From a virus (Duplodnaviria > Caudoviricetes): DNA of 52,149 nucleotides. The position numbers and the translations under genes are program-made. Shown here in pieces: positions 20,489 through 25,460 of this stretch. The stretch is taken from IMG/VR virus record IMGVR_UViG_3300037756_000051, positions 1-52,149 of that record; one strand, given 5' to 3'. A model generated the notes under the pieces. It was not told the DNA's origin, ran no database searches, and was given only the letters and a program-made list of their open reading frames with translations. How positions within the stretch are numbered: position 1 is the first letter of the stretch; each line of letters begins with the position of its first letter.

Positions 20489-21946
20489 ATGAGTGACGTA
20501 GCAGGCGCAGTCGAGACGGAAGTACAGGAAACCGGCGCGGAGCCGAAGCCAGCGGTCAAAGCCAAGGCGAAGGCCAAGGAGAAAGAGCCGCCGCATTACC
20601 ACGTCAACGAGATGAAAACGGGTAAGCGCGATCCATTCTCGGCGGCGTTCAACGAAGCTCAGGACGAGCTGCGCGGCGTGGAGGATGAAGACGACGAAGT
20701 CGAGCCGGAACCCGCGCCAGCACCGAAGAAAAAGCCCGCTCCAAAGCCTGAGAAGAAGGCTGAGGCCGAAGAAAAAGCGCCGGAAAAGAAACCCGCGCCC
20801 AAGCCGGAAGCCGCTGAAGAAGCGGAGGAAGACGACGAAGAAGAAGAATCCGAGGCTGAAGCTCCGAAAGCCGAAAAGAAGATAGAAAAACCGGAGCCGG
20901 TCAAGGCCGAGGTCAAGGAACCGGAGCCGAAGGAAAAAGGCCCGCTTGAGGCCAAGAAATACTGGCCCAGCCGCCGCCGCGAGGCTTTCCGCTTCCAGCC
21001 TCGACATGTGCAGGAAGCCTGGCTTGCTGAAGTTCCAAAGGCCGACCAGCGCTGGAGCGAAGAGCAGAAGACCGCATTTGAAAAGCTGCCCCTCGAAGGC
21101 AAGGAACTGCTTCTGGAGCGGCATCAGGAATTTGAGCGCGGCTATGGCGAGAAGTTCGAAGGCCTCGCCAAGGAACGCAAGCTGATCGAGGAAGTTCAGA
21201 AAGCCGTTCCGCCGCAGATGCGCACGATCATGGAGCAGCGCGGGATTACCGAATCCCAGATGCTCGCCAAGCTCGCGCAGCAACAGCTATTCGCATGGGC
21301 GAACCCGAAAGGGTATATCGCCAAGTTCATACAGGATTCAAAGATCAACCCCGCAGACCTTTTCCCAAGGCCCGCCGAGGGTGAACAGCCTACGACGCAA
21401 CACGCTGCCCCGCAACAGGACAATCCGGCCGCCCTTGACATCAGGACGCACCCGCATTTCCAAGCCATGGCAGCAAGAGTGCGTGAACTGGAGGAGGCGC
21501 AGACAAAAGCCGCCGAATCCGACGACGAGCGGTTTACCGCTGAATTCAACGGCCTGCTCAGTGAAGCGGACGGCGAGGGAAACTCGCTCTATCCGTTCAT
21601 CCGTGTTTTGGCAGGTCCGATGGCTACGATTATCGAGAACGACTCTGACCGTTTCGACGGACTCAGTATCAGGGATCGGTTGGCAGCCGCCTATTATCAG
21701 GCCCTTGAAGATTTTCCAGAGCTTACCGCGATCTACATGACCGCACCAGCATCGGAGACGAAGGTTGACGAACCTGTCGTCAAACCGGTGGCGGACTCTA
21801 GTGGAGAAAGTGAGCGCTTGGCGAAGCTTGAAAAGGCCGTCACTCCAAAAAGCCAGGCCCCGGCAATGGCGTCCGCAAGTTCCGCGTCAGACGACCCGTT
21901 CGAGAAGGCTTTCCAGAGTGCGAAAAAACAACTTGGAAAACGTTAA
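20489..21946 (+). CDS. capsid scaffolding protein
   Basis: Glu/Lys/Pro-rich low-complexity protein directly upstream of the major capsid gene. Confidence 0.7.
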   Translation: MSDVAGAVETEVQETGAEPKPAVKAKAKAKEKEPPHYHVNEMKTGKRDPFSAAFNEAQDELRGVEDEDDEVEPEPAPAPKKKPAPKPEKKAEAEEKAPEKKPAPKPEAAEEAEEDDEEEESEAEAPKAEKKIEKPEPVKAEVKEPEPKEKGPLEAKKYWPSRRREAFRFQPRHVQEAWLAEVPKADQRWSEEQKTAFEKLPLEGKELLLERHQEFERGYGEKFEGLAKERKLIEEVQKAVPPQMRTIMEQRGITESQMLAKLAQQQLFAWANPKGYIAKFIQDSKINPADLFPRPAEGEQPTTQHAAPQQDNPAALDIRTHPHFQAMAARVRELEEAQTKAAESDDERFTAEFNGLLSEADGEGNSLYPFIRVLAGPMATIIENDSDRFDGLSIRDRLAAAYYQALEDFPELTAIYMTAPASETKVDEPVVKPVADSSGESERLAKLEKAVTPKSQAPAMASASSASDDPFEKAFQSAKKQLGKR

Positions 21947-21963
21947 CATAGGAGCAACTTGCT

Positions 21964-23942
21964 ATGGCAAGTCCTAATGCCACGTTCGACGAATTGGCCT
22001 CGCTGACGATTTCGAAGTACTCGAAGACGCTGCGAGACAACGTTTAAATTGGACGTTGTAAAATCGGGTGAAACGGTAGACGCCTGAGACGGTAATACCG
22101 TGCTAAGCTGTTGATGTAACGCAATATATACTTGCGCCAGGGCAACAGAAAGCGTAACGACTAGGTCTTGACGAAAGAATAATAGACCCACGAGCGCCCG
22201 ACACTTTCTAACCAGAGAGGGGAATCCCGAATGGTGGTTATCTATGGCATCGAATGCTTGCCGACTAAATTCGTTTACGTCGGATGCACCGAATGCGGGC
22301 TAGCAAAGAGATGCAGAGAGCATTTCAGTTTGCTGAAAAATAGCAAACATAGCTGCACAAAAATGGTTGAAGACTTCGCACAATACGGCAAAGAGGCCTT
22401 TGCCGCGCGAATTCTCGAAGAGTTGCCTCACAACACGACGTTGGGTGTCAAGCGAGATCGGGAGATCAAGTGGATGTCCAAATTTCGTGATGAGGGCAGG
22501 CTCTACAATCATATGGTCGCATCTTTTGGCATGGGGACGAAGCCGAAAGGCTGGAAACCAAGTCCGGAGTCGAACCTTAAGCGCCGCCTGGCGCAGCTCG
22601 GCAAGCCAAAGGGGCATGGGGCGAAGATCAGCGCCACAAAGAAGGCGCTCGGCCAGAAACCCAGCAGAGAAGCTTGGTTGAAGGGCCAAATGTCCATGAT
22701 GCGCAACAAAGAAGCCAAGAGAGTGGTGAGATAGTCTGCTCTGCAGTCGAACGTGAAGCTGCAGAAGTATCGGATAAAGAGCCGGTACGATAACACAAGG
22801 TCGAACAACATCCCGCTCTATGCGTTCATGAAAGACGCAGGAGCAATCGTAGAGGAAGACGGCGGTATCTACCTGCTGGAAAACCTCGATTATAACGATA
22901 ATGAGACGTTTAATACTCGGGCGTCTATAAACCTTTCCTGATTGGCTTGGAAGTGCTGGCAAGCACGACAAGGGGCAAGCAGCGGAGACATTCGCGGGCA
23001 GCCTGAACGACTTAGCGGAAAGGCCCCTAGTATTAGGGGAATCGAAAGTCTGAACACTGGTATAATGCAAGATCTGAAGCCAGTGAGGGAGGGTCGAAGA
23101 ACTCTCCCCGCCGCGTAAGCGGTCAGTAGCGCTCCGTTGGCGTGAAAGTAACAGAATGCACTTGGTTCAACGGCTACGAGGAAATCTCGATCACGCCGTC
23201 TGAATTTGCAACGACGGCTCATTTCGACTGGAAGGAATGCGCAGGGAATGCTGTCTTCAGCGCCCGTGAAGTCGCACAGAACTCCGGCGAGTCCAAACAG
23301 CATGATCTGGTCAAGGGCAAGGTCAAAAACCTTGAGCGGACCATCATCAACAATGTCGGCGCGGCCTTGTTCCATGCCGGCACGGAGAATGACGGAAAGT
23401 CGTTCGGCGGATTGCAGTATATCATTCCCGATGATCCGACGACCGGCACTGTCGGTGGCATCAACCGCGCAACTGCTGGCAACGAGTTCTGGCGTAGCCA
23501 GACCTTTGATGAGACTGACGACAGCGTGACGCTTTCGGCCACGACCATCCTTGATGCCATGGAACTGCTCTATGTCCGCTGTACGCGCGGCATGGATGTG
23601 CCGAATCTCTGGGTCTACGGCAACACTTACTGGCGCTTTTTTGCCGGTGCGGTGAACGCCAACCAGCGCTACATCCGCGAAAGCGATGCGGCAACCGCGA
23701 AGACCTCGTTCCCGTACTACCTGTTTAAGAACACCAAGGTCTTCCACGACCCGAACGCCGGGGCAACCCACGGCTACGCGCTCAACACCGAATATCTCAA
23801 GGTGAAGGTGCACAAGGATCGCAACATGACGCCTGACAAACCGCGTTATCCGTCGTCACAGCGTGCGACAGTCATCCCCATCGACATGATGGCAAATGTC
23901 GTATGTGGAAATTCTAGCTTGCAAGGGGTCATGAAAGACTGA
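21964..23942 (+). CDS. major capsid protein, spliced: join(21964..22044, 22801..22910, 23159..23942), 324 aa
   Basis: AGGAG RBS. Joined reading MASPN...LRDNV|SNNIPLY...DNETF|TWFNGYEEISITP... is continuous (975 nt) and resembles the podovirus capsid pattern DNVS.N...GG..I.E.L.Y..N.T..W..GYE. Confidence 0.85.
22045..22800 (+). ncRNA. group I intron 1 (IA-like, ORF-containing)
   Basis: P1 ACAACGTT/GACGTTGT with U-G at the splice site, starts TAA, P3 TCGGGTG/CGCCCGA, P7 GACTA/TAGTC, ends in G 22800; removal restores the frame. Confidence 0.9.
22231..22734 (+). CDS. intron-encoded GIY-YIG homing endonuclease with NUMOD3-like tail
   Basis: VIYGI...VYVG.T...KR.REH...E..W...LYN; stop codon falls in the intron P7' strand. 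Confidence 0.85.
   Translation: MVVIYGIECLPTKFVYVGCTECGLAKRCREHFSLLKNSKHSCTKMVEDFAQYGKEAFAARILEELPHNTTLGVKRDREIKWMSKFRDEGRLYNHMVASFGMGTKPKGWKPSPESNLKRRLAQLGKPKGHGAKISATKKALGQKPSREAWLKGQMSMMRNKEAKRVVR
22911..23158 (+). ncRNA. group I intron 2 (248 nt, no ORF)
   Basis: P1 AGACGTT/GGCGTCT, starts TAA, P3 CCTTTCC/GGAAAGG, P7 GACTT/AAGTC, ends in G 23158; TT|C restores the Phe codon and frame. Confidence 0.88.
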
Positions 23943-24280
23943 TGAGCATTTTCACTCCGATTGCTGACAGTCAACTTCTGACTGTCATTCAAAGCTCTCA
24001 AAGGGTTGCCCTTCCCACCACTCCGGTGGGAAGGCTGGCGATGTCCGTGATCATGAATGTTCAATCAAATGACGAGCAGATTACCGCTCGGTTTGGTGAT
24101 GATACCGTGACTGTCTCGGCGTCAAACGGGTATGTCGTTGCGCCCAAAGGGCAGACCACGGGTAATGAGCGGATTGTTGGGGTGCCGCATGGTGCTACGC
24201 ATGTCGCGTTCATTGCGACAGGAACGGGCGGCGCTGAAAAGAAAATTCATGTCACCTTCGGTGACTTGATCTCAGGCTAA
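23942..24280 (+). CDS. putative virion decoration / fibre-base protein (paralog 2)
   Basis: TGATG-coupled to the capsid gene; SQRVAL...FGD.TV...THVA. Confidence 0.55.
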   Translation: MSIFTPIADSQLLTVIQSSQRVALPTTPVGRLAMSVIMNVQSNDEQITARFGDDTVTVSASNGYVVAPKGQTTGNERIVGVPHGATHVAFIATGTGGAEKKIHVTFGDLISG

Positions 24281-24793: not shown

Positions 24794-24872
24794 CAATGTT
24801 AGCTAACATTGCGGATTGATATTGTCTCTGTGATGAAGTAGGGTGCTCTCTTCAGCAAACGGAGAGCACCCT

Positions 24873-25460
24873 ATGATTGGACAAAAGTTCGAATGGCTGA
24901 CGGTTATCGCGGACGCAAGACACGGCTATTGGCGGTGTCGATGCAAATGCGGGAAGGAAACGTCACCGAATGCGACTCATTTGAGATCGGGTCGGGTCAG
25001 ATCCTGCGGGTGTTTGCGAAAGTCTCTCAAGGTTACTCACGGGATGACAGGCTCTCCGTCATACAAAGCTTGGACTGCAATGTTGAAGCGATGCAGAAAC
25101 CCGAACAATGCGCAGTTCCATAACTACGGCGGGCGCGGCATCAGGGTTTGCGAGCGTTGGCAAAAGTTCGAAAATTTCTACGCCGACATGGGCGACAAGC
25201 CAGAAGGAATGTCTCTGGATCGTCATCCGGACCACGATGGCAATTATGAGCCCGGCAATTGCCGCTGGGCCACGCAGACACAGCAGATCAGAAACAAGCG
25301 GAATACGGCTCGCGTGACTTACGAGGGCGAAGAGGTTTCGCTTGCAGAACTATGCGAGCAAAAGGGCCTGAAATTGCGCCGCATCAGGCAGCGCTTGGCC
25401 GCAGGAATGCCGATTGAACGGGCACTAATGCCCGGAAAACACAACCGTTGGAACCCTTAA
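24873..25460 (+). CDS. free-standing HNH-type homing endonuclease-like protein
   Basis: W.CRC.CG...SCGC...THG...W..M..RC...YGGRGI.VC.RW..FENF..DMG..P...SLDR...GNYEPGNCRWAT. Confidence 0.85.
   Translation: MIGQKFEWLTVIADARHGYWRCRCKCGKETSPNATHLRSGRVRSCGCLRKSLKVTHGMTGSPSYKAWTAMLKRCRNPNNAQFHNYGGRGIRVCERWQKFENFYADMGDKPEGMSLDRHPDHDGNYEPGNCRWATQTQQIRNKRNTARVTYEGEEVSLAELCEQKGLKLRRIRQRLAAGMPIERALMPGKHNRWNP

What the first reader, a model, noticed from the sequence alone, without database searches (positions are those of the whole stretch)
21964..23942. Major capsid gene interrupted by two different group I introns
Seen: the ORF track shows only fragments, but removing 22045-22800 and 22911-23158 gives a 324-aa capsid protein. 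Both introns follow ACGTT, begin TAA, end in G and have P1, P3 and P7 pairings; they flank a 110-nt exon; only the first encodes a homing endonuclease. Known: phage group I introns are mostly reported in DNA-metabolism genes. Inference: the most abundant virion protein depends on double self-splicing, the ORF-less intron may spread by co-conversion, and exon skipping would shift the frame.
Basis: partly seen in the sequence, partly recalled or inferred. Interest (0 to 1): 0.7.

Follow-up and report, generated by a model that had tools for sequence, protein, structure and literature searches.

The report
Two group I introns split capsid gene
The major capsid gene of this 52-kb phage is interrupted by two different self-splicing-type (group I) introns, one carrying a homing endonuclease gene; this is real, but it is a further example of something already known in phages.

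Summary
Removing 22045-22800 and 22911-23158 leaves an open 975-nt frame (324 aa) whose three pieces tile intronless homologues without gap or overlap. Intronless alleles in related metagenome contigs read exactly the predicted junctions (L053 at junction 1, L052 at junction 2). All four occupancy states occur among relatives.

Both inserts are group I introns. Each has a U.G pair at the 5' splice site, a terminal G, and P3-P9 helices with the P3/P7 pseudoknot. Covariance models built only from relatives score the window's copies at 103.3 bits (intron 1) and 155.8 bits (intron 2). Covariation is strong. Rfam's general model misses the window's own copies but hits relatives. The GIY-YIG gene lies in the P8 loop of intron 1.

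Splicing itself is inferred, because no RNA run holds the stretch. Capsid-gene introns are already published (mycobacteriophage LittleE, Tuc2009). Less expected: both intron lineages recur mostly in capsid and tape-measure genes of other viral contigs. Verdict: real, a new member of a known kind, moderate interest.

The parts
21964..23942 (+). Major capsid protein gene, three exons and two introns
   Evidence: Joined exons give 324 aa. Exon 3 hits phrog_9953 at E 9e-55. The full-length intronless relative L053 hits phrog_9953 over profile 5-325 of 329 at E 1.4e-62.
21964..22044 (+). Exon 1 (27 codons)
   Evidence: Tiles columns 1-27 of the alignment with intronless homologues. It is 100% identical in protein to L062, L004 and L052.
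22045..22800 (+). Intron 1, group I, 756 nt, with an ORF in the P8 loop
   Evidence: The intronless allele L053 reads the predicted junction GACAACGTT|TCGAAC. Model R2, built from 13 relatives, scores 22059-22201 at 103.3 bits, E 3.9e-32. ORF-less copies at the same site in L052, L004 and L056 hit Rfam RF00028 at 47-48 bits, E 3e-9 to 6e-9.
22037..22059 (+). Intron 1 P1: exon 22037-22044 pairs with the guide sequence 22052-22059; U22044.G22052 at the splice site
   Evidence: Eight standard pairs. The Rfam alignment of the truncated piece gives the same pairing.
22064..22201 (+). Intron 1 core, 5' part: P3 (22064-70 x 22195-201), P4 (22073-78 x 22096-101), P6a (22108-13 x 22143-48), P7 5' strand (22159-63), P7.1 hairpin (22164-68 x 22184-88)
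   Evidence: Helix check and MFE fold. R2 alignment with structure. Family covariation: 27 of 40 pairs show compensatory changes.
22202..22725 (+). Intron 1 P8 (22202-09 x 22718-25), enclosing the endonuclease ORF
   Evidence: Eight standard pairs. ORF-less relatives have a short hairpin at the same place.
22231..22734 (+). GIY-YIG homing endonuclease ORF (167 aa). Its stop codon 22732-34 lies in the P7 3' strand. A purine-rich, Shine-Dalgarno-like run ends 8 nt before the ATG.
   Evidence: Pfam PF01541 at E 3.2e-8, 34.2 bits. PHROGs homing-endonuclease families, phrog_314 at E 9.6e-11. Sequence read.
22732..22800 (+). Intron 1, 3' part: P7 3' strand (22732-36), P9 (22741-46 x 22759-64), P9.1 (22767-73 x 22782-88), terminal G22800
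   Evidence: Helix check. About 90% identical to L004. The intron 2 model R1 hits 22665-22848 at 18.7 bits, E 1e-4.
22801..22910 (+). Exon 2 (110 nt: 36 codons plus 2 nt of a split Phe codon)
   Evidence: Tiles columns 28-63. Continuous with exon 1 in L005, L053, L057, L060 and L062, and with exon 3 in L052, L053, L060 and L062.
22911..23158 (+). Intron 2, group I, 248 nt, ORF-less
   Evidence: The intron-2-less allele L052 reads the predicted junction GAGACGTT|CAC. Model R3, built from 25 loci in other genes, scores 22925-23162 at 155.8 bits, E 5.2e-41. Covariation: 96.0% of cells paired against 79.2% when shuffled, and 33 of 49 pairs changed on both sides.
22904..23143 (+). Intron 2 helices: P1 22904-10 x 22920-26; P3 22932-38 x 23017-23; P4 22946-49 x 22969-72; P5 22953-57 x 22962-66; P6 22973-76 x 23001-04; P7 23009-13 x 23046-50 (pseudoknot with P3); P8 23024-29 x 23034-39; P9 23056-60 x 23080-84; P9.1 23087-93 x 23102-08; P9.2 23110-14 x 23119-23; P9.3 23129-32 x 23140-43
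   Evidence: Helix check; the script picked the wrong P4 partner there, and I corrected it by eye from the columns. RNAalifold. Pair counts.
23159..23942 (+). Exon 3 (1 nt completing the split codon, 260 codons, then the stop)
   Evidence: phrog_9953, profile 67-326. 36-37% identical to the myxophage Mx9 capsid protein from its residue 64.

Best explanation
The capsid gene is transcribed as one pre-mRNA carrying two independent group I ribozymes. Each folds its own P1 helix, with a U.G pair at the 5' splice site, and its own P3-P9 core. Each then excises itself by the usual two guanosine-initiated transesterifications. This joins 22044 to 22801 and 22910 to 23159, and the ligated message encodes a 324-aa HK97-type major head protein. 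An in-frame TAA at the first codon of each intron stops ribosomes on unspliced RNA.

Intron 1 carries a GIY-YIG homing endonuclease gene in its P8 loop. By analogy with I-TevI-type enzymes, this enzyme would cut intronless capsid alleles during co-infection, and repair would copy in the intron together with flanking exon sequence. Intron 2 is an ORF-less copy of a second lineage that is mobile on its own; in close relatives it carries an antisense HNH gene between the 5' splice site and the guide sequence.

Shown here: the exact boundaries, group I architecture, membership of two intron families, and presence/absence polymorphism. Inferred: splicing in vivo, endonuclease activity and its target.
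For: BOUNDARIES
- Intronless DNA alleles match both predicted junctions letter for letter.
- The window's exon translations tile homologues at columns 1-27, 28-63 and 65 onward, with column 64 being the split codon.
- A soil-run contig (X4) bridges both inserts.

OCCUPANCY among 11 informative contigs
- Both introns: the window, L004, L056, L059.
- Intron 1 only: L052.
- Intron 2 only: L005, L057.
- Neither: L053, L060, L062 and the X4 contig.

STRUCTURE
- All listed helices form standard pairs in the window.
- Intron 2 family, 29 sequences: 96.0% of cells paired against 79.2% shuffled and 37-45% slid; 33 of 49 pairs changed on both sides; 0 of 500 shuffles reach this. The P3/P7 pseudoknot is included.
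- Intron 1 family, 13 relatives: 27 of 40 pairs are compensatory.

MODELS that exclude the window
- R2 scores intron 1 at 103.3 bits, E 3.9e-32; the next hit is 11.5 bits.
- R3 scores intron 2 at 155.8 bits, E 5.2e-41, and it is the only hit at E<=0.1.
- Ten of the 13 sequences behind R2 reach Rfam RF00028's gathering score (51.4-92 bits). The other three score 47-48 bits.

SELECTION
- All 42 differences over 489 nt between the window's joined exons and intronless L062 leave the protein unchanged where tested.

HOMING FOOTPRINT
- Identity to L062 drops to 15/21 just upstream of the intron 1 site and to 91/110 in exon 2. It is 56/60 before that stretch, and 58/60 and 227/237 after it.

ENDONUCLEASE
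- Pfam GIY-YIG above its cut-off.
Against: - There is no RNA evidence. No listed sequencing run holding the stretch is RNA, so splicing is not shown.
- Rfam RF00028 finds nothing in the window at the gathering score or at E<=0.1 over the whole window. On the truncated 5' part of intron 1 it gives only 12.3 bits, E 0.57.
- The best RF00028 hit to any intron 2 family member is 40.3 bits, below the gathering score of 50.
- The P4-P6 region of the window's intron 1 shows no blastn similarity to that of its closest ORF-less orthologue L004, although it aligns to the family model.
- Most P7 pairs are invariant, so only one P7 pair carries covariation.
- No convincing P10 pairing was seen by eye for intron 2.
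- The host is unknown.
Confidence: 0.9

Rival explanations
1. The inserts are genuine group I introns, but one or both no longer splice well. The gene would then be a decaying capsid pseudogene in a defective phage lineage.
For: There are no RNA data. Rfam's general model does not reach significance on the window's own copies. The P4-P6 region of intron 1 is divergent from L004.
Against: Every core helix is intact in the window. The family models score both copies full length at 103 and 156 bits. The exons differ from an intronless allele only by silent changes. The record is rated 100% complete. The same two-intron layout occurs in other assemblies: L004, L056 and L059.
Confidence: 0.06
2. 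The inserts are not introns. They would be endonuclease cassettes or other insertions, with the capsid protein made from separate fragments or by some recoding event.
For: Free-standing homing endonuclease genes do split some phage genes (general knowledge, recalled). A free-standing HNH gene lies nearby at 24843-25460.
Against: Exon 2 is 36 codons long, has no start codon and begins in a different frame context. Intron 2 has no ORF. Both inserts have a group I core with covariation, and family members that pass RF00028. The boundaries obey the U...G rule.
Confidence: 0.02
3. Assembly chimera: intron-bearing and intronless strains were mixed in one metagenome contig.
For: Intron-plus and intron-minus alleles coexist in public data.
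Against: One contig of run X1 covers 21900-24000 with no differences, though it may be the source assembly. The two-intron architecture recurs in separately assembled contigs L004, L056 and L059.
Confidence: 0.01

Closest known systems
Capsid-gene intron of mycobacteriophage LittleE (Pope et al. 2013, PMC3706429; abstract and passages read)
   Same: [quoted passage not shown] It was recognised by comparison with intronless relatives. A related ORF-less intron lies in a tail gene of sister phages. Its endonuclease ORF is on the opposite strand, as in intron 2 of L005 and L057 here.
   Different: LittleE has one intron, not two. Its splicing was shown by RT-PCR and N-terminal sequencing; here it is only inferred. 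The host group (actinobacteria) and the capsid family are different. The window's endonuclease is GIY-YIG, on the sense strand, in P8.
Staphylococcus phage Twort orf142 with three group I introns (Landthaler & Shub 1999; seen only as a reference title, content recalled)
   Same: Several self-splicing group I introns lie in a single phage gene, separated by short exons, and exon skipping is an issue.
   Different: The Twort gene is not the major capsid gene as far as I recall. No sequence comparison with it was made here.
Group I introns in tape-measure, terminase and tail-tube genes of Bacillus cereus-group prophages (Tourasse & Kolsto 2008, PMC2504315; passages read)
   Same: These are phage structural and packaging genes colonised at several positions by group I introns, often ORF-less, with co-conversion tracts. 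The intron 2 lineage here also sits in tape-measure genes of SPbeta-like Bacillus phage contigs.
   Different: That paper's text has no mention of 'capsid'. The subclasses given there are IA1/IA2; I could not assign a subclass to intron 2.
T4 td intron with I-TevI (recalled, not tested here)
   Same: A group I intron carries a GIY-YIG homing endonuclease ORF looped out of the ribozyme core, with the ORF end overlapping core sequence. Homing occurs with co-conversion of flanking exons.
   Different: The T4 ORF lies in a different loop, as I recall, and in a nucleotide-metabolism gene. The window's ORF is shorter (167 aa), and no DNA-binding domain was identified.
Bacillus phage Moonbeam terminase with two group I introns (PMC4299906; passage read)
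   Same: Two group I introns lie in one late or packaging gene of a phage.
   Different: There both introns carry endonuclease genes, and the gene is terminase, not capsid.

Membership tests
Group I intron (intron 1, 22045-22800) | The 5' exon ends in U, paired as U.G with an internal guide sequence (P1) | tested here: met
   22037-44 pairs with 22052-59 over 8 pairs, ending in U22044.G22052. The same pairing appears in the Rfam alignments.
Group I intron (intron 1, 22045-22800) | The last intron nucleotide is G, and the boundaries are precise against an intronless allele | tested here: met
   G22800. L053, L062, L060, L005 and L057 are continuous across the site. The L053 DNA equals the predicted junction.
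Group I intron (intron 1, 22045-22800) | Conserved core P3-P8 with the P4-P6 domain and the P3/P7 arrangement, supported by covariation | tested here: met
   Helices in the window. 27 of 40 family pairs are compensatory. R2 scores 103.3 bits over all 148 positions.
Group I intron (intron 1, 22045-22800) | Recognised by the curated Rfam model RF00028 | tested here: inconclusive
   The window's copy gives no hit and only 12.3 bits on the truncated piece; it carries a 504-nt ORF in P8. Same-site ORF-less copies score 47-48 bits against a gathering score of 50. Of 15 sampled loci with the same core motif, 12 are hit and 10 reach the gathering score or more.
Group I intron (intron 2, 22911-23158) | U.G pair at the 5' splice site in P1; terminal G; precise boundaries | tested here: met
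   22904-10 pairs with 22920-26, with U22910.G22920. G23158. L052, L053, L060 and L062 are continuous, and the L052 DNA equals the predicted junction.
Group I intron (intron 2, 22911-23158) | Core P3-P8 with the P3/P7 pseudoknot, supported by covariation | tested here: met
   49 pairs, 96.0% of cells paired. In P3, 6 of 7 pairs covary. The terminal P7 pair occurs as AU 15, GC 12, UA 2. Controls are far lower. R3, built without the window, scores 155.8 bits.
Group I intron (intron 2, 22911-23158) | Recognised by the curated Rfam model RF00028 | tested here: inconclusive
   The window's copy gives no hit. The one family member hit, L036 at 949-1146, scores 40.3 bits, E 6.3e-7, below the gathering score of 50.
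Group I intron (both) | Guanosine-dependent self-splicing, or spliced mRNA in vivo | not testable with these tools
   No RNA holder is listed for the stretch.
Group I intron (both) | Guanosine-binding G-C pair in P7 | tested here: inconclusive
   A G-C pair is present in P7 of both introns (G22159-C22736 and G23009-C23050). It is invariant in the family, which fits the feature but does not prove it.
GIY-YIG homing endonuclease (ORF 22231-22734) | GIY-YIG catalytic domain | tested here: met
   PF01541 at 34.2 bits against a cut-off of 22.6, residues 3-90. PHROGs homing-endonuclease families.
GIY-YIG homing endonuclease (ORF 22231-22734) | Cleaves the intronless allele near the insertion site | not testable with these tools
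   Indirect only: exon divergence clusters around the intron 1 site.
Major head protein, phrog_9953 (Mx8/Mx9-type) | Full-length match to the family profile | tested here: met
   Exon 3 covers profile 67-326. Exons 1 and 2 of L005 cover profile 5-64, and intronless L053 covers profile 5-325. tblastn finds Mx8, Mx9 and a Bradyrhizobium phage, each annotated as capsid.

The most novel reading that the evidence does not exclude
The window's two introns represent two related group I lineages that preferentially colonise virion genes, above all major capsid genes of several different PHROG families and at many different positions. If so, 'split' capsid genes are a common and largely unannotated feature of environmental phages, not a curiosity. 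The capsid gene of this phage group would be a natural system with all four occupancy states for studying intron gain, loss, endonuclease turnover and ribozyme domain exchange.
Probability: 0.5. Interest if true: 0.55.

Novelty: new member of a known kind. Interest (0 to 1): 0.4.

Why it matters
For annotation: a gene caller sees only fragments of the most important structural gene. The same happens in public records; MW202674.1 is annotated with two 'P22 coat protein' pieces around an intron of this family.

For biology: the relatives provide a clean natural series of both, either or neither intron, with endonuclease-bearing and ORF-less forms. There is also a localised tract of silent exon divergence at the homing site. 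This is the kind of material used to study intron homing and the gain-loss cycle.

The sampled host genes of both intron lineages are mostly capsid and tape-measure genes. If confirmed by a census, this would shift the textbook picture that phage group I introns live mainly in DNA-metabolism genes.

Tried and rejected
- RNA evidence: no RNA holder is listed for 21900-24000, so expression and splicing could not be examined.
- Rfam on the window: nothing at the gathering score, nothing relevant at E<=10 on 21900-23300 (two chance matches to unrelated families), and nothing at E<=0.1 on the whole window.
- My first guess for intron 2's P7: I took CUGAAC near 23050 to pair with GGUCAG near 23122. 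I dropped it once the P3 and P7 covariation placed P7 at 23009-13 x 23046-50.
- RNAalifold's alternative helix: it pairs 23049-52 with the 3' tail. This conflicts with P7 and involves only invariant columns, so it stays undecided; it could be a P9.0-like contact.
I modelled the 5' domain only.
- blastn against named phage records found only one intron relative, MW202674.1.
- Other copies of either intron family in the window: none found.
- Intein, group II intron and transposon readings were considered and dropped. The inserts contain stops in the exon frames, have a group I core, and leave no target duplication at the exact junctions.
- I did not assign subgroups (IA1, IA2 and so on). No tool here does this, and my recollection of the subgroup rules is not a test.
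- Supplementary tables of the papers were not available. They might list further capsid-gene introns, for example in PMC12880540 and PMC11835236.
Full report
WHAT IS THERE

The window is a complete 52,149-bp viral record. Between 21964 and 23942 the table-11 ORF list shows only fragments on the + strand: a 27-codon start, a 167-aa ORF, and a 266-aa tail. Joining 21964-22044, 22801-22910 and 23159-23942 inside a script gives 975 nt with a single open frame of 324 codons. The last piece alone matches PHROG phrog_9953 'major head protein' at E 9e-55, but only from profile position 67 of 329. By tblastn it is 30-37% identical to the annotated capsid proteins of myxophages Mx8 and Mx9, a Bradyrhizobium phage and others. 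So the first ~66 residues of the family are missing from that piece, which is the size of exons 1 and 2.

BOUNDARIES

Searching viral and metagenome contigs with exon 3 gave 2 and 13 related loci. tblastn of the three exon peptides on them, together with one soil-run contig, shows every occupancy state among 11 informative contigs:

| State | Contigs |
|---|---|
| Both introns | window, L004, L056, L059 |
| Intron 1 only | L052 |
| Intron 2 only | L005 (the same contig as L020 and L055), L057 |
| Neither | L053, L060, L062, X4 contig |

Five further loci (L054, L058, L061, L063, L064) do not cover the region.

At the DNA level, intronless L053 reads ...GACAACGTT TCGAAC..., and intron-2-less L052 reads ...GAGACGTT CAC....

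A protein alignment places the window's exon translations at columns 1-27, 28-63 and 65 onward of the intronless homologues. Column 64 is the Phe codon split TT|C by intron 2. Intronless L053 matches phrog_9953 over profile 5-325.

The intron 1 boundary could formally slide by one base, but only 22045-22800 ends in G. The intron 2 boundary is unambiguous.

GROUP I IDENTITY

Rfam's general model RF00028 finds nothing in the window. It gives only 12.3 bits (E 0.57) on the 5' part of intron 1 cut off before the ORF, although that alignment reproduces my helices. This must be stated plainly: the curated model does not by itself identify the window's copies.

The evidence comes from relatives.

- ORF-less intron 1 copies at the same site in L052, L004 and L056 score 47.9, 47.1 and 47.1 bits (E 3e-9 to 6e-9, gathering score 50), full length and starting at the 5' splice site.
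- Of 15 such loci sampled, 12 have an RF00028 hit over the motif. Ten of these reach the gathering score or more, up to 92 bits.
- An alignment of 13 relatives, none of them the window, gives an RNAalifold structure of 40 pairs, 27 of them with compensatory changes.
- A covariance model of their 5' domain scores the window's 22059-22201 at 103.3 bits, E 3.9e-32, over the full model. The next best hit scores 11.5 bits.

For intron 2:

- A motif pattern from its 3' half found 45 IMG/VR stretches.
- On 29 distinct sequences, a structure with P3-P9.3 and the P3/P7 pseudoknot has 96.0% of cells paired, against 79.2% in shuffles and 37-45% when partners are slid.
- 33 of its 49 pairs are changed on both sides, and no shuffle out of 500 reaches any of the five measures.
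- A model built from 25 of these loci, leaving out the window and its three capsid-gene relatives, scores 22925-23162 at 155.8 bits, E 5.2e-41.
- One family member (L036) is also hit by RF00028, at 40.3 bits, E 6e-7.

ANATOMY IN THE WINDOW

Intron 1 has these helices:

- P1: 22037-44 x 22052-59, with the U22044.G22052 pair
- P3: 22064-70 x 22195-201
- P4: 22073-78 x 22096-101
- An extended P6, including 22108-13 x 22143-48
- P7: 22159-63 x 22732-36
- A hairpin between P7 and the P3 3' strand: 22164-68 x 22184-88
- P8: 22202-09 x 22718-25
- P9 and P9.1
- Terminal G22800

The GIY-YIG ORF 22231-22734 (Pfam at 34.2 bits against a cut-off of 22.6) fills the P8 loop. Its last codons form the P8 3' strand and the P8-P7 joining stretch (J8/7), and its stop codon lies in P7. 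ORF-less relatives have a short P8 hairpin there.

A hairpin between P7 and P3 is, as I recall, a mark of subgroup IA. I did not test subgroup membership.

Intron 2 has no P2 and no such hairpin. It has a compact P4-P6 and four hairpins after P7. Its coordinates are given under 'parts'.

Both introns begin with an in-frame TAA.

The two introns share the P7 sequence. The intron 2 model weakly hits the 3' part of intron 1 (18.7 bits, E 1e-4), so they are related but distinct.

MOBILITY

The intron 1 copy in L004 and L052 lacks the ORF, and by blastn it shares only the first 28 nt and the last ~70 nt with the window's copy. Runs X2 and X3 hold that ORF-less form.

In L005 and L057, intron 2 is about 893-898 nt long. 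It holds an antisense ORF between the 5' splice site and the guide sequence. The L005 ORF matches Pfam HNH at E 6e-11. The L057 ORF was not searched, but its translation carries the same HNH-type residues.

The window's exons differ from intronless L062 at 42 of 489 positions, with no protein change in the parts tested. The differences are concentrated around the intron 1 site:

| Segment | Identity to L062 |
|---|---|
| Exon 1, first 60 nt | 56/60 |
| Exon 1, last 21 nt | 15/21 |
| Exon 2 | 91/110 |
| Exon 3, first 60 nt | 58/60 |
| Exon 3, next 237 nt | 227/237 |

L052, which has intron 1 but not intron 2, keeps the window-like exon 2 (102/110). This pattern fits co-conversion of flanking exon sequence with intron 1, or selection of a cleavage-resistant intronless allele. 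It does not show that intron 2 travels with intron 1.

WHAT IS NOT SHOWN

Splicing, endonuclease activity and the host are all unshown. No RNA run holds the stretch.

COMPARISON WITH WHAT IS KNOWN

- Pope et al. 2013 (PMC3706429; abstract and passages read) showed by RT-PCR and protein sequencing that the capsid gene of mycobacteriophage LittleE is spliced. Its group I-type intron carries an antisense endonuclease ORF. They cite an intron in the capsid gene of lactococcal phage Tuc2009.
- Tourasse & Kolsto 2008 (PMC2504315; passages) describe group I introns at three sites in tape-measure genes, and in terminase and tail-tube genes, of Bacillus prophages.
- Phage Moonbeam has two introns in its terminase gene (PMC4299906; passage).
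- Twort orf142 has three (title seen, content recalled).
- Gut jumbo phages carry about 18 group I introns per genome, with metatranscriptome support for splicing (PMC12880540; passages).

So a group I intron in a capsid gene, and several introns in one late gene, are both known kinds. My five literature searches did not turn up a bacteriophage capsid gene with two different group I introns. That is a statement about those searches only.

WIDER PATTERN (PARTLY FOLLOWED UP)

Intron 2 lineage. I gave PHROGs 10 of the 18 representative 3' flanks computed.

- 5 were major head proteins: phrog_283 in three loci, at three different profile positions, and phrog_1357 in two loci.
- 4 were tape-measure proteins (phrog_4211), in SPbeta-like and other contigs.
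- 1 had no hit.

Intron 1 motif. Two samples were taken.

- In the first, flanks of 9 loci with Rfam hits gave major head protein in 8: phrog_1328 in six loci, phrog_1005 in one and phrog_9953 in one.
- The second used the first 20 of 79 distinct downstream stretches of at least 90 aa; L087, at 80 aa, was dropped. It gave 12 major head proteins (8 phrog_1328, 4 phrog_9953), 1 tape measure, 1 ribonucleotide reductase large subunit, 2 homing endonucleases and 4 with no hit.
- Together, 20 of 29 sampled loci are major head genes.

In L086 and L091 the profile match starts at position 28-29, the same site as the window's intron 1. Other phrog_9953 genes carry introns near profile positions 15, 127 and 299. 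Five of the 15 loci have two introns close together.

Caveats: the motifs were derived from a capsid-gene intron, contigs were de-replicated only crudely, and the 'downstream stretch' is a longest-open-frame heuristic.

VERDICT

Its novelty is modest: this is a new member of a known kind. The comparative series and the apparent capsid and tail preference of the two lineages are the parts worth following.

Noticed in passing
Of 29 sampled loci, 20 have a major head protein gene as the flanking exon (phrog_1328, phrog_9953, phrog_1005). The others are a tape measure, a ribonucleotide reductase, endonuclease ORFs or no hit.
   Followed up: partly
L007-L051 (IMG/VR loci): The intron 2 lineage, defined by the motifs of its 3' domain, occurs in 45 stretches. 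Of 10 sampled 3' exons, 5 are major head proteins of two other PHROG families (phrog_283, phrog_1357) and 4 are tape-measure proteins. These include SPbeta-like Bacillus phage contigs whose named relatives (phi3T, SPbeta) lack the intron.
   Followed up: partly
L001 = MW202674.1 16569-18084: This public record annotates two separate 'P22 coat protein' CDS and a small hypothetical CDS between them. The gap matches the window's intron 2 at 68.8% over 221 nt, so it is probably an unannotated group I intron.
   Followed up: partly
L005 2016-2732 (-) and L057 375-1004 (-): In two relatives, intron 2 carries an ORF on the antisense strand, inserted between the 5' splice site and the guide sequence (the P1 loop). 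The L005 ORF hits Pfam HNH at E 6e-11; the L057 ORF was not searched. The orientation is the same as that reported for the LittleE capsid intron.
   Followed up: partly
window 22024-22044 and 22801-22910: Silent differences from the intronless allele L062 cluster here: 15/21 and 91/110 identical, against 93-97% elsewhere. This looks like a co-conversion tract, or like an endonuclease-resistant intronless allele.
   Followed up: partly
window 22073-22157 versus L004 607-730: The P4-P6 region of intron 1 has no blastn similarity between the window and its closest ORF-less orthologue at the same site, while the 5' end, the P7-P3 region and the 3' end are conserved. Both versions fit the family model. 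This suggests exchange of ribozyme domains between alleles.
   Followed up: partly
window 24843-25460 (+): A free-standing HNH endonuclease gene (phrog_374, E 2e-67) lies just downstream of the head-gene cluster. It is a second kind of homing-type element in the structural module.
   Followed up: no
window 20489-21946 (+): The 485-aa ORF directly upstream of the capsid gene is rich in A, E, K and P and has no Pfam or PHROG hit. By its position it may be a scaffolding protein.
   Followed up: no
L111, L141, L127, L135, L114: Five of the 15 sampled loci have two RF00028 hits close together, 48 to about 800 nt apart. L127 is a phrog_9953-type capsid gene. Pairs of introns around short exons therefore seem common in these contigs.
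   Followed up: no
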